The position numbers and the translations under genes are program-made. This document shows, piece by piece, positions 55,530-63,623 of a stretch of 64,000 nt of DNA (within the stretch, counting starts at the first letter, position 1; the number at the start of each line of letters is the position of its first letter). The notes beneath the pieces are model-generated. The model saw only the letters and a program-made list of their open reading frames with translations, had not been told where the DNA came from and did not search any database. The stretch comes from a virus, in the IMG/VR virus record IMGVR_UViG_3300025674_000016, positions 91,703 to 155,702 of that record. One strand, 5' to 3'.

Positions 55530-55889
55530 ATGCTTTACAAAAGATTTAACAACCAAACAGTATTTGATGAGTTATTTGGAACTGGTTTTAACAAGAAGAC
55601 TAGTGTTAGAGAGTTAAAAGATAGATTCCAAATAAAAGTAGTTGCACCTGGGCTAAGAAAGAAAGACTTTAAGATTGATTTTGAAGATGGTCTGATCAAG
55701 ATTGAATTTAAAAGAGACGCAGATAGAGAAGGTCTGTTTACAAAAGAAAAGTTCTTTAAGTCTTGGATATTGCCAGAAGGAACCGAGCCTGAGCATATCT
55801 CAGCATCATATGATGCAGGTGTTCTTTCAATTTCTATTGACAAAACAGAAGCACACAAGCCCAAGACACAAAATATCCCAATCCAGTGA
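55530..55889 (+). CDS. Small heat-shock protein (Hsp20)
   Basis: APGL.K.DF.I, F.KS..LP, I.ASY..GVL.I.I. Confidence 0.9.
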   Translation: MLYKRFNNQTVFDELFGTGFNKKTSVRELKDRFQIKVVAPGLRKKDFKIDFEDGLIKIEFKRDADREGLFTKEKFFKSWILPEGTEPEHISASYDAGVLSISIDKTEAHKPKTQNIPIQ

Positions 55890-55917
55890 ATAAACCCTGG
55901 CCCTGCTCTGTCTAAGG
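55887..55917 (+). promoter_or_regulatory. ECF-like promoter/stem-loop cassette, copy 1
   Basis: TGAATAAA-N13-CTGTCTAAGG. Confidence 0.8.
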
Positions 55918-55936
55918 GACGTAGGAGGGCAACAAG

Positions 55937-57015
55937 ATGTTCAGCAAAGGTCAGCTCGTCAAGTATCGTGTAGATAGAAAATGGAGCTTCCCAACATTCC
56001 ATACTAAAAAGAATGAAGCCTGGAAGTTTGAATGCATTGGCGTTCTCTTAGGTGAAAAGCTTCTTACAAACAAAAACCTCAATTCTTATTCAGTCTGCAC
56101 AGTTTACTGGAGCGACATGAAAATAAGAAAACACTTCTTAATTGAACTGGACCCTATCAATGAATAAGCGTGAATTTGAAAAAGGCGACCTTGTAAGGAT
56201 ACCTCGTCATATTGCGCAGAATGTTTACCTCACTCGTGATGAAGACACAAAATATTTCCAATTTGGTGTTGTTATTAGAACTATCCCCTCTCCCGTCTCT
56301 ATGACCGCCGAGGTATTTTGGCCACAATTGAAGAAATCTAGTTTTTACTTCTTTCAGCATCTCGTGAGGATTAAATGAGAAAGCATAAATTTAAAAAAGG
56401 TGATCTTGTAAGAGTCGGCCAGTTGTACGGAGGGGCTATTTTTAAACAACCCCTCGAAAGTGATGTTGGGATCGTGGTTAATACCGCTCCCCATCCACGC
56501 TGGCCACATCTGATATCTGTATACTGGTCTATTTTGCAAAAAGAAGTAGAACTTCAGAGAGTGTATCTGGAGCCCATCAATGAAAAAGCATAGTTTTAAA
56601 GAGGGTGATCTTGTAGGAATCCATCCTTCGCATAGGGATTCTATTTTTATAGGACTCCAAGATGATATTGGGGTTGTAGTTGATTCTGAGCCTTGGGGAG
56701 GGAGAAATCGTACTTTGTTGCGTATACACTGGGTTGTGCGACAAACAGAGACGCTTATGTCTGGCAACTATTTATGCCCTCTTGCAAAGGAAGAAGGTCA
56801 TGCATCTTAAAAAAGGAACCTTAGTAAGAATAAGTGAGTATGGCAAGTCAAGACTGACCAAGTACGGGACTCTAAAAAATGTGTTAGAAAAGCCTGATCA
56901 AATCGGCGTTGTTATGTCCACAAAAAAGAATGGCTTTTGGCATAGAGTCTTTTGGGTAGAAACACAAAAAGAAGAGAACATGTATAACGGATTTATAGAG
57001 AGGGTTGAAACATGA
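55937..57015 (+). CDS. Five tandem small KOW/SH3-like paralogs (55937-56167, 56160-56378, 56375-56593, 56580-56810, 56800-57015)
   Basis: Shared (F/L)xxG(D/Q/T)LV...G(V/I)(V/L)...(V/I).W pattern; overlapping start/stop codons. Confidence 0.7.
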
Positions 57016-57257
57016 AATATATTATATATCAACAAAGGGGTGAAGAAAAGGTTGCCCTAACCTTCCCAGGCACCAAGGTACAAGCAGAAAATACATTTAA
57101 TAGAATGTCAAGACTTGGGATTCAGGACATAATTCTTGAAAAGCAGAATAAAGAAAAAACAAAGAAACAAAAAGAAGTAGAGACTTTAAGAAAGAAAGCA
57201 AAGAGGGACTTCCAACGCTACCTCAACGAAAAAAGTGTGAATAACCTTGACGACTAG
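57012..57257 (+). CDS. Hypothetical basic protein
   Basis: Coupled ORF. Confidence 0.5.
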   Translation: MKYIIYQQRGEEKVALTFPGTKVQAENTFNRMSRLGIQDIILEKQNKEKTKKQKEVETLRKKAKRDFQRYLNEKSVNNLDD

Positions 57258-57268
57258 CCTGTCTAAGG
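57238..57268 (+). promoter_or_regulatory. ECF-like promoter/stem-loop cassette, copy 2
   Basis: TGAATAA-N14-CTGTCTAAGG. Confidence 0.8.
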
Positions 57269-57297
57269 GTTGAACGAGGCAAACAACGGAGGAGACG

Positions 57298-58130
57298 ATG
57301 ACTTTCTATATTATTCAAGATAGAATCAGCGGAGATTATTTAACTGACCCTTCCAAAGGAGAATGGCAGTTCTTTGAATGGGAAGGTTATAATCTTGTGA
57401 CTTGTGAGATTGAAGAATGCTCTGGACTCTTTTTGACAATCGAAGATGCAATTGAGGAGCTTGAAAATCTTCAAGAGCAAAAAGAATTAAGGATAGATTC
57501 CCAGCAAGAAGATCTAAGAGTTCTCAGAATAGAGCCTGAGACAAACTACCGATGGTTTAAGGAGGATATCAATGAAGATTGAAAATGGGGACGAGTTGGA
57601 CTTGGAAGGCAAATATTGCTGGATTACTGTTGACAGTATATCAATCTTGATTTCCAAGAAGGATGAAGGTGTCTCAGTTTCTCTCTACCCGCTTGATGGT
57701 GAGAGTGAAGAAAGTCTGGCAGAGACTTGGCTAACATATGCGGAGGCAGAGTGCAATGAGCGATTATGGCCTGAAGAAGTTTAAAACATTTGCAAAAGCA
57801 AACAGGCTGCGACTTGAGAGGTCTGAGGATGGCTTACCTATTGTCGCTGCCCGTGGCAAAAAGTTCCAGGGTTGGCACCTATATGAAGGTTTTGGGGATG
57901 ATTTCGTCGCTCTGTATATAACCAGGGATACACCCGCGAAACTAAAACACTCAGTTCGTTTTGTTAAAAAACTGGGCCTTACCCTCATACAAGAGGGAGA
58001 TCTGGAGGCGGTGTTCAAAGTTCCATATAATCAACTCTGGAGAGTAGCAAAGGAACTTAAAATGGTCAAGAAGTCGCCATCAAATCAAAACTTGTCTGGC
58101 TTAGCTCAGTACAGGGAAGCCAATATATAG
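57298..58130 (+). CDS. Three small hypothetical genes (57298-57582, 57572-57784, about 57756-58130)
   Basis: SD GGAGG sites; coupled ORFs behind cassette 2. Confidence 0.55.
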
Positions 58131-58133
58131 AGT

Positions 58134-58296
58134 AAAGTTAAGAGGTTGGGTTTATTATTGCGACTCATTGTCTATAATGAGCGTTCCTTCCATATAGGGT
58201 ATCATACTTTATTATTTTACATGATACCTGGAGGGAGATTAAAAGTAGGCTAGCATGGGACTCACTGCGAAAACTAGTCCTACCCAATCTCACTTT
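58134..58296 (+). ncRNA. Candidate structured ncRNA (about 160 nt)
   Basis: ORF-free; closing stem GAGGTTGGGT/ACCCAATCTC plus AAAGT/ACTTT; long apical hairpin; core shared with 63413-63450. Confidence 0.55.
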
Positions 58297-58299
58297 CCC

Positions 58300-58330
58300 T
58301 GAATAAAACCGGAAGCTAGACTGTCTAAGG
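58300..58330 (+). promoter_or_regulatory. ECF-like promoter cassette, copy 3
   Basis: TGAATAAA-N13-CTGTCTAAGG. Confidence 0.8.
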
Positions 58331-58349
58331 AACACAACGGGAGGCTGAC

Positions 58350-58619
58350 ATGACAACAAGACAAGAGGCAAGCAAGATGGCTCACATCCACAACCTGTCG
58401 AGAGATAAAAAAATTAATGGCAAGTCTTTGATCCACGCCCTGAACCAGGCTTTCAAGCGTCACGGTATCATGTGGCAGGAACCCAACAGCGTATTCAAGG
58501 GAGATATTGTTGAAGAACTCTTTTCAAGCATGGACTTTTCTTCAAGAGAAAACCCAACGCTTTCTATCGAAGAGTTTTTCGATATTGTAGCAGAAGACCT
58601 GCAAGACTATGTGGAGTGA
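58350..58619 (+). CDS. Hypothetical protein
   Basis: SD GGAGG behind cassette 3. Confidence 0.55.
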   Translation: MTTRQEASKMAHIHNLSRDKKINGKSLIHALNQAFKRHGIMWQEPNSVFKGDIVEELFSSMDFSSRENPTLSIEEFFDIVAEDLQDYVE

Positions 58620-58623
58620 GAAA

Positions 58624-59283
58624 ATGAAAGTTCTTATTGCTTGTGAGGAAAGCCAAGAAGTCACAAAAGCTTTCCGAAGCTTGGGAATAGAGGCATACTC
58701 ATGTGATGTCCAGCCTTGTTCGGGTGGACACCCTGAGTGGCATATCCAGGGCTGTGCCCTGGAGCAAGCCTATAGTGGCGAGTATAGCCTGATGATTGGG
58801 CACCCGCCTTGTACCTTCCTTTCTAAAGCTGGTGCTCGTTGGATGTTTCCAAAGGGCGAGCTTAGTACAGAGAGGTATGAGAAGGCCAAGAAAGCAAAAG
58901 AATTTTTTATGAAACTGATGGAAGCTCCAATCGACCACATCGCACTAGAGAACCCAGTGCCTCTAAAGGTTGTGGAGTTGCCCCAGTTCACACAGGCAAT
59001 TCAGCCTTACCAGTTCGGGCACCCTTTCTCGAAAAAGACCTTGCTCTGGTTGAAGGGGTTGCCGCCCCTGGAGCCGACCAACATTGTAGAGAGACAAGGA
59101 ACTTATCTTCCTTCTAACACAGGCGGAGCCAAGAGGGGTTTATCAAGCGATCAAGGGGTTAGAAAAGCCCAAGGGTCTAAACTAAAACAACATAGAAGTA
59201 AAACATTTTCTGGTATTGCTGAAGCGATGGCAGATCAGTGGTCGAGATTTTTGCTGAATAAACCAGCAGCCTCAACTGTCTAA
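58624..59283 (+). CDS. Phage DNA cytosine methyltransferase-like protein
   Basis: VLIACEES, HPPCT, LENP, K.T.LWL, RSKTF.GIA.AMA.QW. Confidence 0.8.
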   Translation: MKVLIACEESQEVTKAFRSLGIEAYSCDVQPCSGGHPEWHIQGCALEQAYSGEYSLMIGHPPCTFLSKAGARWMFPKGELSTERYEKAKKAKEFFMKLMEAPIDHIALENPVPLKVVELPQFTQAIQPYQFGHPFSKKTLLWLKGLPPLEPTNIVERQGTYLPSNTGGAKRGLSSDQGVRKAQGSKLKQHRSKTFSGIAEAMADQWSRFLLNKPAASTV

Positions 59284-59285
59284 GG
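59255..59285 (+). promoter_or_regulatory. ECF-like promoter/stem-loop cassette, copy 4
   Basis: TGAATAAA-N13-CTGTCTAAGG; CCTCA/TGAGG stem. Confidence 0.8.
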
Positions 59286-59310
59286 GGTGAGGGCAACAAT
59301 GGAGGGCAAA

Positions 59311-59697
59311 ATGGGAATCGAGGTTACACTAGACATCACAGATAGTTTGCAGGTTCAAGAATTAATGGAGATCTTGGATGAAAAACAACTCCTTAAAAAT
59401 ATTTGTTTCAATCAGATGACCTTTGAAAGATGTTCTTTCTCCAATGCTACTTTTGAAGAGTCGGACTTTGACTGCGCTTCCTTTAAAGGTGCAATTTTTG
59501 AGTTTGCTTATATTGAGGCTCCCGACTTCGGCAACGCCCTATTCAAGGGTGGGGCCTGGGATTCAGCACACTTTATGGATGTTGAGTTTCAAGACTGCCA
59601 TTTCACAGATACCGACCCGCCCAATAAAAAAGTTGTTATTGACTTGACAAGGGCGAAGGATGACGAGACTTACATCGACTTGACAAAAAGTGAATAA
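59311..59697 (+). CDS. Pentapeptide-repeat protein
   Basis: CSFSNATFEESDFDCASFKGAIF repeats. Confidence 0.75.
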   Translation: MGIEVTLDITDSLQVQELMEILDEKQLLKNICFNQMTFERCSFSNATFEESDFDCASFKGAIFEFAYIEAPDFGNALFKGGAWDSAHFMDVEFQDCHFTDTDPPNKKVVIDLTRAKDDETYIDLTKSE

Positions 59698-59721
59698 ACC
59701 AGTTACCTCAACTGTCTAAGG
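59691..59721 (+). promoter_or_regulatory. ECF-like promoter/stem-loop cassette, copy 5
   Basis: TGAATAAA-N13-CTGTCTAAGG; CCTCA/TGAGG stem. Confidence 0.8.
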
Positions 59722-59746
59722 TGTGAGGACAGCAACGGAGGACAAT

Positions 59747-60007
59747 ATGAAGATCGAAGAAGAAAAGACTTGGACAATCACTTTTTCTAAGGCTGATATC
59801 AACGGCGTGTTGGCGTTCTTCATTAAAGAGGGGCTCCTTCGCGGCGCAGACCTCAGTGGAGCCGACCTTCAAGGAGCCAATTTGGAGGACGCCGACCTCA
59901 CTGGCGCCAACTTCTCAAGCGCCAACCTCACTGGCGCGAGCTTGGAGCACGCCAACTTGGAGAACGCAGACTTCACAGGGGCGCTACTCGATGGAAGCAA
60001 GTTTTGA
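59747..60007 (+). CDS. Pentapeptide-repeat protein
   Basis: ADLSG/ANLED repeats. Confidence 0.88.
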
Positions 60008-60110
60008 TTGATGATTTATGAGACATGATTCCGAAAATACTCCTTAAAAAATAAACACCATTATTTTTCACCTTCGGAATCACCCTGACCACTTGGGATA
60101 AAGTGGCTTT

Positions 60111-60184
60111 GCACCCATAGCTCAATCGGATAGAGCACCGGCCTTCTAAGCCGTAGGTTCCAGGTTCGAGTCCTGGTGGGTGTG
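60111..60184 (+). tRNA. tRNA-Arg(UCU)
   Basis: Cloverleaf; anticodon loop CT-TCT-AA; T-loop TTCGAGT. Confidence 0.92.
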
Positions 60185-60213
60185 CTGGTTGTGAGACAAC
60201 AACGGAGGATGAG

Positions 60214-60543
60214 ATGAAAGTCGAAGAAAAAAGAATGTGGACAATTACATTTACCACTGACGAAGTGCAGGAGGTTATCAATCTCCTTGTTGAGGAGAAC
60301 CTCTTCAGAGGCGTAGACCTAAGTCGCGCAAATCTCTTTGAGGCAAACCTTCATGGCGCAAACCTCAGTTGCGCAATTCTCAGTTGCGCAAACCTCACTG
60401 GCGCAGGTCTAAGCGCCGCAGACCTCACCAGCGCAGACCTCCGTGAGGCAAACCTCACCAACGCAAAGCTCACAGACGCCGATATAGAAGAATCGGCTCT
60501 GCGACAAGCAAACATTTGTGAATGCGATCCAAGCGATGTCTAG
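60214..60543 (+). CDS. Pentapeptide-repeat protein, paralog of 59747
   Basis: Shared MK.EE...WTITF N-terminus; ANL repeats. Confidence 0.88.
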   Translation: MKVEEKRMWTITFTTDEVQEVINLLVEENLFRGVDLSRANLFEANLHGANLSCAILSCANLTGAGLSAADLTSADLREANLTNAKLTDADIEESALRQANICECDPSDV

Positions 60544-60562
60544 GAACACAATAGGAGACGCC

Positions 60563-61462
60563 ATGAAACTAGGCTATGCCTGCATCAATACAGAGTTGAC
60601 AGAAAGAGGTGTCTCTTCAAACAGAGGCATGATCAAGCGAACCTTTCAGGCCAAGGGCGTTAACTACGCATCAGAGATCGCCCTTGCAAACGTGAGGGCA
60701 CTGAAGGAAATTATTCAGTGGAATGCAGATAACGACATTCATGTATACAGAATGTCAAGCCTTTTGTTTCCTTGGATGTCCGAGTATGAGATTCAAGACC
60801 TCCCAGATATTGATCTCATCAAGACTACCCTGCTGGCCTGCGGCAAACTTGCCAGACAACACGCCCAGCGCCTCAGTTTTCACCCAGGACCGTACAACGT
60901 CCTGTGCAGTCCCAAAGATAATGTCGTAGATAAAACAATAAAAGAACTAAATCAACACAGCGAGATCATGGACTTGATGGGCCTGCCACGCTCGCCATAT
61001 GCCAAGATAAATATTCACTTGGGTGGCGCATACGGCGACCACGCAGGTTCAATGGCGCGGTTCTGCACCAATTTCCAGCGCCTTGACGAAGGCACCAGGG
61101 CTCGCCTCACCGTTGAGAATGACGACAAGCCCTCTATGTATTCCACTAAGATGCTGTATGAAGGTGTCCATAAGGTAATTGGAACACCAATTGTCTTCGA
61201 CTCGCACCATTTCAGTCTCGGCCCACAAGACCAGACATACGAAGAAGCTTTCTATCTTGCTCGCAAGACTTGGGAAGGCACTGGAGTCAAGCAGATTTGC
61301 CATCATTCTAACTCTAGGCGCAAATATGACGACCCAAAGGCCAAGCCTGTCGCACATAGCGACCTTATTCACGAGAGATTCGAGAACTTCGGAGAAGATA
61401 TTGATCTTGTCTTGGAGGCAAAGAAAAAAGAATTAGCGATCAAACACTATCCAAAAAGCTGA
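60563..61462 (+). CDS. uvsE: UV damage endonuclease
   Basis: LGYACIN, R.SS..FP, HPG, IH.GG, ENDD, D.HH, H.S, HSD, EAK.KE. Confidence 0.93.
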   Translation: MKLGYACINTELTERGVSSNRGMIKRTFQAKGVNYASEIALANVRALKEIIQWNADNDIHVYRMSSLLFPWMSEYEIQDLPDIDLIKTTLLACGKLARQHAQRLSFHPGPYNVLCSPKDNVVDKTIKELNQHSEIMDLMGLPRSPYAKINIHLGGAYGDHAGSMARFCTNFQRLDEGTRARLTVENDDKPSMYSTKMLYEGVHKVIGTPIVFDSHHFSLGPQDQTYEEAFYLARKTWEGTGVKQICHHSNSRRKYDDPKAKPVAHSDLIHERFENFGEDIDLVLEAKKKELAIKHYPKS

Positions 61463-61490
61463 ATAAATCGGCAGCCTGCCCTGTCTAAGG
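61460..61490 (+). promoter_or_regulatory. ECF-like promoter/stem-loop cassette, copy 6
   Basis: TGAATAAA-N13-CTGTCTAAGG. Confidence 0.8.
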
Positions 61491-61517
61491 TACGAGGCAG
61501 CAACAACGGAGGAAACA

Positions 61518-61763
61518 ATGCGACTCAAACTTGGTGATCTCGTAGAACTCAACTACGCAGGGAAAGGTACTCAATGGCTTTATCAAGCAAAAGGAAAGAT
61601 TGGGGTTTTAACAGAGATGTGTGACAGGCAGCTTTATAAAGAAGGCGCTGCTTATATTTCTTGGATTGATGTTCCCCCTCCTGAATATTGGGGATACCTC
61701 AATCTCAACAAAGTGGCTATTCCACTCTACTGCCTCAAGAAAGTAAGGAGAAAGAAGAAATGA
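61518..61763 (+). CDS. Small KOW/SH3-like protein
   Basis: LKLGDLVEL...GVL...ISW. Confidence 0.6.
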   Translation: MRLKLGDLVELNYAGKGTQWLYQAKGKIGVLTEMCDRQLYKEGAAYISWIDVPPPEYWGYLNLNKVAIPLYCLKKVRRKKK

Positions 61764-61984
61764 AAGTAAAGAATCTAAAGCCTGGGCAGATGTTTTTGCG
61801 TGGCCAACAACTATTTCTTAAACTAGATATTGAAGATCCCAGGTTTAGAGATTATTTAACCCTAAACTATGAGATGTGCGAGCCCACGTTTGATATCTCA
61901 ACTGGGGTGTTCCACCCCTTCTTTTCAGAAGAAGAAGTAATTCCTGTGTCCACGGGTATTGAGATCACAAGGATGGGAGCATGA
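61760..61984 (+). CDS. Hypothetical protein
   Basis: SD AAGGAG; MKVKNLKPGQMF. Confidence 0.55.
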   Translation: MKVKNLKPGQMFLRGQQLFLKLDIEDPRFRDYLTLNYEMCEPTFDISTGVFHPFFSEEEVIPVSTGIEITRMGA

Positions 61985-61999
61985 TTTTTTGAGAAAGTG

Positions 62000-62030
62000 T
62001 GAATAAACCTCTCGGCTGAACTGTCTAAGA
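62000..62030 (+). promoter_or_regulatory. ECF-like promoter, copy 7 (upstream of tRNAs)
   Basis: TGAATAAA-N13-CTGTCTAAGA. Confidence 0.8.
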
Positions 62031-62036
62031 GGTGAT

Positions 62037-62108
62037 GCTAGCGTAGCTCAACGGTAGAGCAACTGCCTTGTAAGCAGTAGGTTATGGGTTCAAATCCCTT
62101 CGCTAGCT
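62037..62108 (+). tRNA. tRNA-Thr(UGU)
   Basis: GCTAGCG/CGCTAGC acceptor; anticodon loop CT-TGT-AA. Confidence 0.92.
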
Positions 62109-62113
62109 TATCA

Positions 62114-62186
62114 GGGGAATTAGCTCAGTTGGTAGAGCACCGCCTTTGCACGGCGGGTGTCATCGGTTCGAGTCCGATATTCTCCA
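62114..62186 (+). tRNA. tRNA-Ala(UGC)
   Basis: G3:U70 pair; anticodon loop TT-TGC-AC. Confidence 0.93.
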
Positions 62187-62210
62187 TTCTTGGCCAAGAT
62201 TCGTTTTTTG

Positions 62211-62241
62211 TGAATAAACACACCACCTCACCTGTCTAAGG
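62211..62241 (+). promoter_or_regulatory. ECF-like promoter/stem-loop cassette, copy 8
   Basis: TGAATAAA-N13-CTGTCTAAGG; CCTCAC/GTGAGG stem. Confidence 0.8.
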
Positions 62242-62271
62242 AGTGAGGGCAACACAACAGAGGAGTTAGAA

Positions 62272-62508
62272 ATGTCTGAAAAAACTCTTAACCTTATTCG
62301 TGAAAACCAAGTTGTTAACTTTGTTGCAAGCAGGCGAGGACGCAAGGGCGGTAAGATTCAGGCCAATACCTTTGAAGAAGTTGCTGCCCAGGCAGCAGCA
62401 AAAGGCTGGACTGGAGATCTCGTGGTATCAAAGATTTTTGTTTCTAATACAAAGTCCACGCCCACGATTTCCAGTGAAGAATCTGGGGTCGCAGTTGCAG
62501 AAATGTGA
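62272..62508 (+). CDS. Hypothetical protein
   Basis: SD GAGGAG behind cassette 8. Confidence 0.55.
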   Translation: MSEKTLNLIRENQVVNFVASRRGRKGGKIQANTFEEVAAQAAAKGWTGDLVVSKIFVSNTKSTPTISSEESGVAVAEM

Positions 62509-62535
62509 ATAAGCACACTTCCACCCCCGTTAGGG
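62506..62535 (+). promoter_or_regulatory. Degenerate cassette, copy 9
   Basis: TGAATAA-N14-CCGTTAGGG. Confidence 0.45.
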
Positions 62536-62559
62536 CGTGAAACAACAAAGGAAGATAAC

Positions 62560-62823
62560 ATGAAACAAAAGCTTTATCTAGTTACTGCTAGTTGTTGGGG
62601 CCACCCGTTCCCTGGGGACGGGGACTGGATTGAGTGTTTTGAGACTCGTGAAGAGGCTCAAGACTTCATTGACAGGGCGAAAACCGATGCAGAGGAGTCC
62701 AATGAGTATAATTGGGCCAAATACTATTTCAAAGATTTTGGCCACCCGAAGGATGTGGCGTACATCATAGACCTTAAACAATGGATTGAAGGAATAAACC
62801 CCCAGCCTCAATCGTTATATTAG
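62560..62823 (+). CDS. Hypothetical protein
   Basis: ORF behind cassette 9. Confidence 0.55.
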   Translation: MKQKLYLVTASCWGHPFPGDGDWIECFETREEAQDFIDRAKTDAEESNEYNWAKYYFKDFGHPKDVAYIIDLKQWIEGINPQPQSLY

Positions 62824-62855
62824 CGAACGAGGGGCTGGCAAGCAAAAGAAAATGG

Positions 62856-62886
62856 TGAATAAAACACCAGCCTCTCCTGTCTAAGG
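62856..62886 (+). promoter_or_regulatory. ECF-like promoter/stem-loop cassette, copy 10
   Basis: TGAATAAA-N13-CTGTCTAAGG; CCAGCCTC/GAGGCTGG stem. Confidence 0.8.
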
Positions 62887-62901
62887 GATGAGGCTGGCAG
62901 A

Positions 62902-62985
62902 GCATCAGTGGCGGAAACGGTAGACGCGCTGGGTTTAGGTTCCAGTGCCCATTTGGGCATGGGGGTTCGAGTCCCCCCTGATGCA
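62902..62985 (+). tRNA. tRNA-Leu(UAG)
   Basis: Long variable arm; anticodon loop TT-TAG-GT. Confidence 0.92.
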
Positions 62986-62986
62986 T

Positions 62987-63230
62987 GACGCGCCCCCTGA
63001 CAAGGGCTAGTAGGGGTGGTCCCTCTATGATTGAACTGGACTAGTCATCCAGAATAAAAACTCCTCCTCGGATGAGGCGGGTCGTCAACAGCCCGTTAGT
63101 AACGACAAGCGAAGGTAGTAAGAGAGGTTGGGGGTAGGCCCCTGGCCGACAACGGGAAACCCGAAAGGGAGTCTCCTTCGCCAAAACACTTAAATATAAG
63201 TGTGCCGTGCAGCGTTACTGTTGACCGTTC
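62987..63230 (+). ncRNA. Candidate multi-stem pseudoknotted ncRNA (about 240 nt)
   Basis: ORF-free and GC-rich; GNRA-type hairpins; long-range GTCAACA/TGTTGAC and GTAACG/CGTTAC pairings. Confidence 0.6.
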
Positions 63231-63304
63231 GCATCCATAGCTCAGTTGGTCAGAGCCACCCGCTCATAACGGGTTGGTCCTCGGTTCGAGTCCGAGAGGG
63301 TCCA
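63231..63304 (+). tRNA. tRNA(CAU), Ile2/Met type, with a mismatched acceptor stem
   Basis: D, anticodon (CT-CAT-AA) and T arms are intact; acceptor GCATCCA/AGGGTCC has C:C and A:A mismatches. Confidence 0.7.
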
Positions 63305-63324
63305 TAGACTTTAAATAATAGTAT

Positions 63325-63408
63325 GCCGTGGTGGTGGAATCGGTAGACACAGGAGACTTAAAATCTCCCGTCCGTATGGACGTGCGGGTTCGACTCCCGC
63401 TCGCGGTA
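63325..63408 (+). tRNA. tRNA-Leu(UAA)
   Basis: Long variable arm; anticodon loop CT-TAA-AA. Confidence 0.92.
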
Positions 63409-63412
63409 TTAT

Positions 63413-63510
63413 CTCATTGCCTATAATGAGCTTTAATGAAAGTAGGCTAGTACCAGTCTTGTATTAAAAGAGGCGACGGCCCATTCAAGGCCCACCCGTG
63501 CTCATAGACT
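63413..63510 (+). ncRNA. Candidate pseudoknot RNA, short version of the 58.2 kb element
   Basis: CTCATTGCCTATAATGAGC...AAAGTAGGCTAG shared with 58164-58253. Confidence 0.5.
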
Positions 63511-63512
63511 TT

Positions 63513-63587
63513 CTGCTTGTAGCTCAACCAGGTTAGAGCACTGGCCTTATAAGCCAGAGGTTGTGGGTTCGATCCCCACCAGGCAGA
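63513..63587 (+). tRNA. tRNA-Ile(UAU)
   Basis: CTGCTTG/CAGGCAG acceptor; anticodon loop CT-TAT-AA. Confidence 0.88.
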
Positions 63588-63592
63588 TTTCT

Positions 63593-63623
63593 TGAATAAA
63601 CCAACGACTTGTGCTGTCCAAGG
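63593..63623 (+). promoter_or_regulatory. ECF-like promoter/stem-loop cassette, copy 11
   Basis: TGAATAAA-N13-CTGTCCAAGG; CTTGTGC/GTACGAG stem. Confidence 0.75.

What the first reader, a model, noticed from the sequence alone, without database searches (positions are those of the whole stretch)
58134..58296. Candidate new ncRNA, long form: pseudoknot core within a closed rod
Seen: an ORF-free 160 nt segment closed by AAAGT/ACTTT and GAGGTTGGGT/ACCCAATCTC. Inside is hairpin CTCATT-GTCTAT-AATGAG (58164-58181), whose loop can pair with GTAGGC (58245-58250). A long hairpin (TTCCTTCCA/TGGAGGGAG, GGTATCAT/ATGATACC) lies between them. GTAGG-CTAG can alternatively pair with CTAG-T-CCTAC downstream, so two conformations are possible. 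Inference: a switch, a ribozyme or a 6S-like RNAP decoy (rod with a central bubble containing UAUAAU). I do not recognise the family.
Basis: partly seen in the sequence, partly recalled or inferred. Interest (0 to 1): 0.7.

Follow-up and report, generated by a model that had tools for sequence, protein, structure and literature searches.

The report
New pseudoknotted RNA family in marine phages
The 163-base gene-free stretch is a real folded RNA, one of three copies in this phage of an uncatalogued RNA family that usually sits just ahead of phage tRNA or tmRNA genes in uncultured marine phages; its job is unknown.

Summary
Window 58134-58296 folds far better than shuffles (z -4.05).

It belongs to a family absent from Rfam 15. 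The architecture is a closing helix P0, hairpin P1, an optional hairpin P1a, and hairpin P2 with a 7-nt GYGARRA loop. The six-base P1 loop pairs with a junction further on to form a pseudoknot.

- **Copies.** The phage has three: the finding, 63398-63512 abutting tRNA-Ile, and one 13 nt before its tmRNA.
- **Covariation.** About 31 metagenome members and 48 members collected only through a neighbouring gene show compensatory changes in P1 and the pseudoknot. P0 and P2 use unrelated sequences in different members.
- **Orthologues.** The finding's own locus keeps the element in three diverged relatives, with compensated helices. A fourth relative lacks it.
- **Setting.** The usual order is a small basic HTH-protein gene, often a sigma70-type promoter, the element, a U-run, then a tmRNA or tRNA (37 of 48).

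My reading: a discrete stable RNA released by termination or RNase P. A conditional terminator is the main rival. The 6S-like and switch ideas are not supported.

An earlier scan note (e1-5377234) may describe the same kind of RNA before a freshwater phage tmRNA; I did not check it.

The parts
58134..58151 (+). P0 5' strand: AAAGU (58134-58138), a 3-nt bulge, then GAGGUUGGGU (58142-58151)
   Evidence: Pairs with 58282-58296. Orthologues keep the helix with other sequences: GAGAACG/CGUUCUC, GGCAACG/CGUUGCC and GACAACGGA/UCCGUUGUC. A P0 helix is found in most family members.
58152..58159 (+). J0/1, an A/U-rich linker (UUAUUAUU)
   Evidence: A/U-rich linkers of about 8-30 nt occupy this place in all classes.
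58160..58184 (+). P1 hairpin: GCG-A-CUCAUU, loop GUCUAU (58170-58175), AAUGAG-CGU
   Evidence: On A7, P1 pairs show CG21/UA19, UA31/AU6 and CG15/GC8/UA4/AU2. The synteny set A11 shows further changes. Most members carry an A.C mismatch at the position where this copy has A-U.
58185..58237 (+). P1a, a variable inserted hairpin (UCCUUCCA/UGGAGGGA and GGUAUCAU/AUGAUACC)
   Evidence: Orthologue L180 has UCUAUUC/GAAUAGA and GGCAUCAU/AUGAUGCU, which are compensatory. Other classes have short, unrelated hairpins or none.
58238..58253 (+). Junction AUUAAAA, pseudoknot 3' strand GUAGGC (58245-58250) and the conserved UAG
   Evidence: It pairs with loop 58170-58175. PK pairs on A7 are AU27/CG11 and UG19/CG11/GC3/UA3/AU1. 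On A11 they are GC18/UG7/AU6/CG4/UA3 and CG32/AU5/UA1. RNAalifold on the plain MAFFT alignment predicts exactly this helix.
58256..58282 (+). P2 hairpin: (U)GGGACU / AGUCC(UA), with loop CACU-GCGAAAA-CU
   Evidence: There are 32 distinct P2 stems in the family, with a conserved 7-nt GYGARRA apical loop. Orthologues have GGGGCUU/AAGCUCC and GGAAUC/GAUUCC.
58282..58296 (+). P0 3' strand ACCCAAUCUC-ACUUU
58300..58330 (+). Phage-specific promoter-like cassette TGAATAAA-N13-CTGTCTAAGG, starting 4 nt after the element
   Evidence: Eight to ten copies lie in 55.8-63.6 kb. The cassette is also present after the element in orthologues, and in the relative that lacks the element.
63398..63512 (+). Second, reduced copy: P1 63413-63430 (loop GCCUAU), PK partner GUAGGC 63442-63447, with a different 3' hairpin. 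It lies between tRNA-Leu and tRNA-Ile(UAU).
   Evidence: R1 scores 37.4 bits, E about 1e-11. A related contig, L066, keeps it with a different 3' hairpin. It abuts tRNA-Ile.
57738..58130 (+). Upstream ORF (130 aa, no known family) whose homologues mark the orthologous loci

Best explanation
**What is shown.** The stretch encodes one copy of an uncatalogued, independently folding RNA module. A closing helix P0 encloses a junction of P1, an optional P1a and P2. The six-base loop of P1 pairs with the junction before P2 to form a pseudoknot. P2 carries a conserved GYGARRA loop. The family is common in a lineage of large uncultivated marine myophages.

**Canonical setting.** The module lies just downstream of a conserved small basic HTH-protein gene, often behind a sigma70-type promoter. 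It ends in a U-run 1-20 nt before the mature 5' end of a phage tmRNA or tRNA.

**What I infer.** The module is itself the product. Its 5' and 3' ends are locked together by P0. Its 3' end is made either by termination at the U-run after P0 or by RNase P cutting at the adjoining tRNA or tmRNA. This would give a stable RNA of about 110-170 nt. I think it works by binding a protein; the neighbouring basic HTH protein is the obvious candidate.

**The copy in the finding.** It is a transposed copy of the module. It sits at the end of an mRNA unit, directly before a phage-specific promoter.
For: **Fold.** z -4.05.

**Family and copies.**
- Three copies in the genome at E <= 1e-11.
- About 31 distinct metagenome members.
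- 48 of 79 loci collected only through the neighbouring protein carry the element. It is on the same strand, starting from directly after the gene's stop codon to about 190 nt beyond it.

**Covariation.**
- P1 plus PK cells are 89% and 88% paired, against at most 57% when the partner is slid. Both-sided changes occur in 54 and 48 cells; 0 of 500 shuffles reach that.
- RNAalifold finds the PK helix on its own.
- P0 is present with unrelated sequences; 16 of 35 members have z < -2.
- P2 has 32 distinct stems under one conserved loop.

**Orthologues of this copy.** They keep all helices through compensatory changes.

**A discrete product.**
- sigma70-like promoters lie within 110 nt upstream in 19 of 36 members, against 9.3% background. 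Near-consensus promoters (11-12 of 12 matches) occur in eight of them.
- A U-run of 4 or more sits at the 3' end in 35 of 48, against 10.7% background.
- A tmRNA (19) or tRNA (18) follows 37 of 48; all but one begin within 42 nt, median about 7 nt.
- P0 pairs the two ends of the RNA.
Against: - No 5' or 3' end is mapped.
- The finding's own copy has no sigma70-like promoter by the scan and only a weak U-run. In this phage it may exist only as the 3' part of an mRNA.
- The U-run could be a spacer preferred by RNase P. In the copy-1 locus it could be an UP-like element of the next promoter, because a relative without the element keeps a U8 run there.
- Nothing tests binding to the HTH protein. 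Its fold gives only weak matches to DNA-binding HTH domains.
- A cis-regulatory role fits the same anatomy.
Confidence: 0.45

Rival explanations
1. **Conditional terminator (riboswitch-like or protein-responsive attenuator).** P0 followed by the U-run is an intrinsic terminator. Its two strands meet only when the P1/pseudoknot/P2 core is folded. A ligand or protein that stabilises or melts the core would set how much transcription passes into the tmRNA, tRNA or genes behind it.
For: - It is promoter-proximal in many members.
- A U-run follows P0 or P2 in 73%.
- The cargo begins 1-20 nt later with no room for its own promoter, so read-through must occur.
- The topology is that of junction riboswitches such as SAM-I: a closing helix, with a hairpin loop pairing to a junction (my knowledge).
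- Some members are followed by a separate canonical terminator and then a gene (L041, L052).
- A paper reports a predicted glutamine riboswitch at the tmRNA gene of the marine phage Melnitz, and GSII-like genes lie in several of these operons (PMC9004378).
Against: - The regulated genes would mostly be tRNA and tmRNA, which is unusual for riboswitches.
- Several classes have no U-run at all (L004, L048, L043, L107, and L180, an orthologue of the finding's copy).
- No conserved alternative pairing was seen.
- No ligand is suggested by the varied cargo.
Confidence: 0.25
2. **nut/put-like processive antitermination signal.** The nascent RNA, perhaps with the neighbouring protein bound through its basic N-terminus, modifies RNA polymerase so that it reads through terminators into untranslated tRNA and tmRNA genes and later genes.
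For: - Tight synteny with a small protein that has a Lys/Arg-rich N-terminus.
- Some P2 loops contain GAAAA or GAAGA, the lambda boxB pentaloops (boxB sequences from my knowledge).
- There are three sites per genome, as with nutL and nutR.
- Terminator-like U-runs lie directly behind it.
- The order HTH gene, RNA site, terminator recalls cro-nutR-tR1 (my knowledge).
Against: - The element is much more elaborate than nut or put.
- No boxA-like element is conserved.
- The protein's ordered part looks like a DNA-binding HTH.
- Copy 2 lies inside a tRNA cluster, not at its start.
- A single 75-nt tRNA hardly needs antitermination.
Confidence: 0.1
3. **Self-cleaving ribozyme.** The RNA separates the leader from the cargo.
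For: It has a compact pseudoknotted fold with invariant junction and loop nucleotides. A hairpin whose six-base loop is fully engaged in a pseudoknot also occurs in pistol ribozymes (my knowledge). Ribozymes are common in phages.
Against: No match to any Rfam ribozyme model, even at E <= 10. The strand order differs from pistol. RNase P already accounts for processing at the tRNA or tmRNA end.
Confidence: 0.04
4. **6S-like decoy of RNA polymerase.** This is the first reader's idea: a rod with a central bubble mimicking an open promoter.
For: It has closed ends, and this copy contains UAUAAU.
Against: UAUAAU is not conserved in the family. The architecture is a multi-helix junction with a pseudoknot, not a long rod with a bubble. 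No 6S model matches.
Confidence: 0.02
5. **A DNA-level element, or a chance structure in a spacer.** For example a promoter, a protein-binding site or a hairpin promoter.
For: -10-like hexamers occur in the P1 loop and in J0/1. An HTH protein gene is the neighbour.
Against: G.U pairs in the pseudoknot and in P2 would be A.C mismatches on the other strand. Long-range loop-to-junction covariation across a variable insert of 10-67 nt has no DNA-level explanation. Four helices are compensated in orthologues.
Confidence: 0.02

Closest known systems
Phage T4 species 1 and species 2 stable RNAs (rnaC, rnaD) of the tRNA cluster
   Same: They are small stable phage RNAs of unknown function, co-transcribed with tRNA genes and released from the same precursors (my knowledge).
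   Different: No sequence or structural relation was tested or seen. This family has a defined P0/P1/pseudoknot/P2 fold and a fixed neighbour gene. It also occurs away from tRNA genes, as in the finding.
P4 CI RNA and P1/P7 C4 antisense RNAs (Rfam 'C4')
   Same: They are regulatory phage RNAs cut out of a leader transcript by RNase P (my knowledge).
   Different: No Rfam match. Those RNAs act by antisense pairing to repeated target sites, and no such targets were sought or seen here.
Junction riboswitch aptamers of SAM-I type topology
   Same: A closing helix encloses a multi-helix junction, and one hairpin loop pairs with a junction strand. The position is 5'-proximal and a U-run follows.
   Different: No sequence or covariance-model similarity to any riboswitch class. 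The cargo is mostly tRNA or tmRNA. No ligand is known.
Glutamine riboswitches (glnA / Downstream-peptide) predicted at the tmRNA gene of marine phage Melnitz
   Same: The ecological and genomic setting is similar: marine myophages, a tmRNA, and GS genes nearby (PMC9004378).
   Different: The published aptamer sequences (PMC5393176, PMC6698751) have a different architecture. Rfam models RF01739 and RF01704 do not match. This phage lineage has no relative among GenBank phages.
lambda nut (boxB) and HK022 put antitermination RNAs
   Same: They are promoter-proximal RNA signals next to a small regulator gene and ahead of terminators. boxB-like GAAAA and GAAGA loops occur in some P2 hairpins.
   Different: This element is far larger and pseudoknotted. 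No boxA is present, and the partner protein is not N-like apart from a basic N-terminus.
6S RNA
   Same: Paired 5' and 3' ends.
   Different: There is no central bubble architecture, no conserved -10-like sequence and no model match.

Membership tests
   The finding scores 58.5 bits, E about 3e-20, with R1, although it was in the seed. Its orthologues L188, L180 and L190, which were not in the seed, score 56, 42.9 and 39.6 bits.
The new family itself | Closing helix P0 around the whole module | tested here: met
   A 15-bp P0 in this copy. It is compensated in orthologues and present in most classes.
The new family itself | Canonical context: downstream of the conserved basic HTH gene and abutting a tmRNA or tRNA | tested here: not met
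   This copy lies between an unrelated 130-aa ORF and a promoter cassette. The other two copies in the genome meet part of the context: genome 18662-18785 follows the HTH gene and precedes the tmRNA, and window 63398-63512 abuts tRNA-Ile.
6S RNA (Rfam RF00013 and clan) | Match to the covariance model; a long rod with a central bubble | tested here: not met
   No Rfam match at E <= 10. The architecture is a junction with a pseudoknot.
Known self-cleaving ribozymes (pistol, hatchet, twister, twister-sister, hammerhead, HDV-like) | Match to the Rfam models | tested here: not met
   cmscan at E <= 10 on the window region and on canonical members gives nothing over the element.
Known self-cleaving ribozymes | Self-cleavage activity | not testable with these tools
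   This needs an in vitro transcription and cleavage assay.
Glutamine riboswitch I / II (RF01739, RF01704) | Model match; the CGUUC...GGAACG pseudoknot or E-loop three-way junction | tested here: not met
   No match. The published aptamer sequences differ in architecture.
Permuted (two-piece) tmRNA acceptor piece (RF04321) | A match at gathering score, with a T-arm and a 3' acceptor strand ending in CCA upstream of the coding piece | tested here: not met
   Sub-threshold hits of 30-46 bits (gathering score 47) are driven by the 5' part of the one-piece tmRNA. The upstream part aligns with many non-pairs and has no T-loop and no CCA. The tmRNAs are complete one-piece genes.
Intrinsic terminator | A G+C-rich stem directly followed by a U-run | tested here: inconclusive
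   The family as a whole has a U-run of 4 or more in 35 of 48 members. This copy has only CUUU after P0, and the consensus scan finds no terminator here. Orthologues L188 and L190 have P0 followed by U8.

The most novel reading that the evidence does not exclude
The family is a new class of conditional terminator: a riboswitch-like or protein-responsive RNA whose closing helix plus U-run terminates transcription only when the pseudoknotted core is folded. Marine phages would use it to meter the output of their own tmRNA and tRNA genes, and of a few early proteins, perhaps in response to a nutrient signal or to the neighbouring basic HTH protein.
Probability: 0.2. Interest if true: 0.85.

Novelty: new variant of a known kind. 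Interest (0 to 1): 0.62.

Why it matters
Complex pseudoknotted RNAs kept across many diverged genomes have usually turned out to be riboswitches, ribozymes or parts of RNA-protein machines.

This one is abundant in uncultivated ocean phages. The neighbouring protein alone has 205 relatives in IMG/VR, and 48 of the 79 loci searched carry the RNA. It is tied to a fixed protein partner and to phage tRNA and tmRNA genes, whose expression and purpose in phages are poorly understood.

The report gives a defined sequence, a tested secondary structure and clear constructs, so the question of how phages make and control their own translation RNAs becomes directly testable. If the RNA proves to be only a processed leader with no function of its own, it is still a useful annotation for thousands of 'intergenic' phage regions.

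Tried and rejected
- **Closing-stem pattern scan** of viral contigs. It found only two unrelated chance matches.
- **Flanking proteins as probes** in viral contigs. Nothing was found.
- **The exact 18-mer scan.** Half the hits were chance matches in coding DNA. The looser bipartite pattern in viral contigs mostly hit a DNA polymerase gene and a coding gene end.
- **The genome-contig scan.** It gave six chance hits in bacterial MAGs and none with the fold.
- **BLAST of leader plus tmRNA against GenBank phages.** Only the tmRNA 3' ends matched. The HTH protein has no relative there.
- **Long-insert pattern** in viral contigs. No hits.
- **Permuted-tmRNA reading** of the sub-threshold RF04321 hits. 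Rejected after reading the alignments.
- **Glutamine-riboswitch reading.** Rejected on model and sequence comparison.
- **A promoter reading of TATAAT in the P1 loop.** Rejected because the hexamer is not conserved and the loop covaries with its distant partner.
- **Structure-fitted alignment of P2 by R1.** It stayed out of register between classes. P2 was therefore judged by per-sequence helix extraction. The 63% figure for P2 understates it.
- **A strict hairpin-plus-pseudoknot regular expression** on the synteny loci. It was too narrow and noisy: 13 loci against 6 on the reverse strand.
- **The Fremin 2023 catalogue** of 10,006 phage RNA candidates could not be checked because no supplement is held.
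- **Fold search of the HTH protein.** It gave no significant match.

Full report
**1. The observation**

The window is the last 64 kb of a 155.7-kb IMG/VR virus record. The virus is a large myovirus with a tail sheath, major head protein, DnaB-like helicase, ribonucleotide reductase and GroEL.

Positions 58134-58296 lie between the stop codon of a 130-aa ORF (57738-58130) and a repeated promoter-like cassette that starts at 58300. The 163-nt RNA folds at -50.1 kcal/mol against -34.3 for shuffles, z -4.05. No Rfam 15 family matches the region, even at E <= 10.

**2. It is a repeated and widespread element**

A note of the first stage (e1-5826951) pointed to a second copy. I confirmed three copies in the genome:
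- the finding itself;
- window 63398-63512, between tRNA-Leu and tRNA-Ile(UAU);
- genome 18662-18785, ending 13 nt before a phage tmRNA.

Pattern scans then recovered the same hairpin and partner in IMG/VR contigs and in about 31 distinct marine metagenome contigs. None of the bacterial genome hits was real. A covariance model, R1, was built from 28 of these.

**3. Architecture and covariation**

*P1.* A 6-9 bp hairpin with a 6-nt loop. Its pairs change on both sides: CG21/UA19, UA31/AU6 and CG15/GC8/UA4/AU2. One position is an A.C mismatch in most members and A-U in the copies of this window.

*Pseudoknot.* The loop pairs with a strand 10-67 nt downstream that is followed by U-R-G. RNAalifold on the plain MAFFT alignment predicts exactly this long-range helix.

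My first set was selected with a pattern that fixed most of these bases. I therefore collected a second set through the neighbouring protein only.
- R1 found diverged copies with loop/partner pairs GUCUCU/AGAGGC, GGCUCU/GAGCC, GACUCU/GGAGUC and GUCUAC/GUAGGC.
- A second model, R2, found the element in 48 of 79 such loci.
- On that set the second pseudoknot pair is GC18, UG7, AU6, CG4, UA3, and the fifth is CG32, AU5, UA1.
- P1 plus pseudoknot are 88% paired, against at most 57% when the partner is slid. 0 of 500 shuffles reach the observed covariation (similar on A7).
- The sixth pseudoknot pair is weak.

*P2.* It has 32 different stems under a conserved 7-nt loop GYGARRA.

*P0.* This helix closes the module. 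It uses unrelated sequences in different classes, for example GCGAUCCACGAG/CUCGUGGAUCG in L040, ACCCAUGAAG/CUUCAUGGGU in L107 and CCUAUAGAGUGU/ACACUCUAUAGG in L116. 16 of 35 members have duplex z < -2.

*Strand.* G.U pairs in the pseudoknot and in P2 identify the + strand as the RNA strand.

**4. The finding's own copy is under selection**

Homologues of the 130-aa ORF (63-82% identity) mark orthologous loci. Contigs with P0003, P0007 and P0008 carry the element between the same two genes.

| Helix | Window | Orthologues |
|---|---|---|
| P0 | GAGGUUGGGU/ACCCAAUCUC | GAGAACG/CGUUCUC; GGCAACG/CGUUGCC; GACAACGGA/UCCGUUGUC |
| P2 | GGGACU/AGUCCU | GGGGCUU/AAGCUCC; GGAAUC/GAUUCC |
| P1a | as in the finding | compensated or replaced |
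| P1 loop / partner | GUCUAU/GUAGGC | GUCUAC/GUAGGC; GUCUAA/AUAGAC |

The MFE fold of L188 reproduces P0, P1 and P2 unaided.

Contigs with P0004 (74% identity) lack the element. They have a 71-nt spacer with a U8 run before the same promoter cassette. The element therefore behaves as a cassette that is gained or lost.

**5. Context**

In the family at large, the element follows a conserved gene for a 114-129-aa protein, starting from directly after the stop codon to about 190 nt beyond it. The protein has a Lys/Arg-rich N-terminus and a C-terminal helix-turn-helix that resembles Fis-type HTH only weakly. It has no Pfam or PHROG family and no relative in GenBank phages. It has 205 relatives in IMG/VR.

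- sigma70-like promoters lie within 110 nt upstream of P1 in 19 of 36 members, against 9.3% of control windows. Eight are near-consensus, for example TTGACA-16-TATAAT. In one class the -35 box is built into the last codons of the protein gene.
- The element ends in a run of four or more U in 35 of 48, against a background of 10.7%.
- In 37 of 48 it is followed by a tmRNA (19) or a tRNA (18); all but one begin within 42 nt, median about 7 nt.
- Other cargos are a GSII-type glutamine synthetase, a NUDIX-like ORF and small SH3-like ORFs.
- The finding's copy is atypical. No sigma70-like promoter is detected, only CUUU follows P0, and the next feature is the phage-specific promoter cassette.

**6. 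Interpretation**

*Shown:* this is a conserved, independently folding, pseudoknotted RNA domain of a family not in Rfam.

*Inferred:* it is a product in its own right. The two ends are paired. In many members a promoter sits just before P0. A U-run, or an RNase P site at the adjoining tRNA or tmRNA, would define the 3' end. The same module is kept where no tRNA follows. I put this at 0.45.

*Main rival (0.25):* the same anatomy works as a conditional terminator that meters read-through into the cargo. The cargo has no room for its own promoter, so read-through must happen. The junction-plus-pseudoknot topology is that of riboswitch aptamers.

*Other readings:*
- A nut/put-like antitermination site served by the basic HTH protein is possible (0.1).
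- A ribozyme (0.04) is untested.
- The 6S-like decoy (0.02) is contradicted by the lack of conservation of UAUAAU and by the architecture.

**7. Novelty**

No Rfam family matches. The sub-threshold tmRNA_permuted hits are explained by the tmRNA itself.

The papers I could search do not describe the element. PMC9004378 reports a glutamine riboswitch with the tmRNA of a different, cultured marine phage. PMC10690425 lists 10,006 unnamed candidates whose supplement I could not read.

It may be the same kind, but I could not compare sequences.

Noticed in passing
window 55881-63623: There is an array of promoter-like cassettes, TGAATAAA-N13-CTGTCTAAGG, often followed by CAACRR-GGAGG and a start codon or a tRNA. 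The spacing and hexamers look ECF-sigma-like. One copy starts 4 nt after the element.
   Followed up: partly
L014:1799-2105 (genome 18798-19104, outside the window): A phage one-piece tmRNA with tag DESQFEYAMAA, preceded by the third copy of the element. Many relatives carry tmRNAs with tags such as DEDYFEYAMAA and ANIDVENAVALAA.
   Followed up: partly
L014:1267-1647 and alignment A5: A conserved protein of about 120 aa with a Lys/Arg-rich N-terminus and a Fis-type-like C-terminal HTH. It has no Pfam or PHROG family, 205 relatives in IMG/VR and none in GenBank phages. Its gene is the fixed upstream neighbour of the RNA.
   Followed up: partly
window 63303-63312 and 63503-63512: The 10-mer CATAGACTTT occurs just before tRNA-Leu(UAA) and again just before tRNA-Ile(UAU). 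In other family members YUCAUAG is the 3' strand of P0, but here no 5' partner was found.
   Followed up: no
window 62987-63230: A 244-nt ORF-free stretch lies between tRNA-Leu(UAG) and tRNA-Met and has no Rfam match. I did not examine it.
   Followed up: no
L059:1964 onward; L045; L042: A eukaryote-like type II glutamine synthetase gene (protein starts MRKAEYIWLDG...) lies downstream of the element, or of the element plus tmRNA, in several relatives.
   Followed up: no
L184:9-350 and L190:1-254: A gene with a Pfam Acb5 hit (PF26761, an anti-CBASS family) lies a few genes upstream of the orthologous copy-1 locus in related phages.
   Followed up: no
L098 (G004:27891-27981) and L099 (G001:48971-49061): Weak R1 hits (11 bits) fall at the same place in two related contigs. 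They could be a very diverged extra copy.
   Followed up: no
P2 loops across the family: Several P2 loops contain GAAAA or GAAGA, the lambda boxB pentaloops. Others read GCGAGAGA or GCGAGGAGGACC, which recalls the sarcin-ricin loop sequence. These are resemblances from memory only.
   Followed up: no
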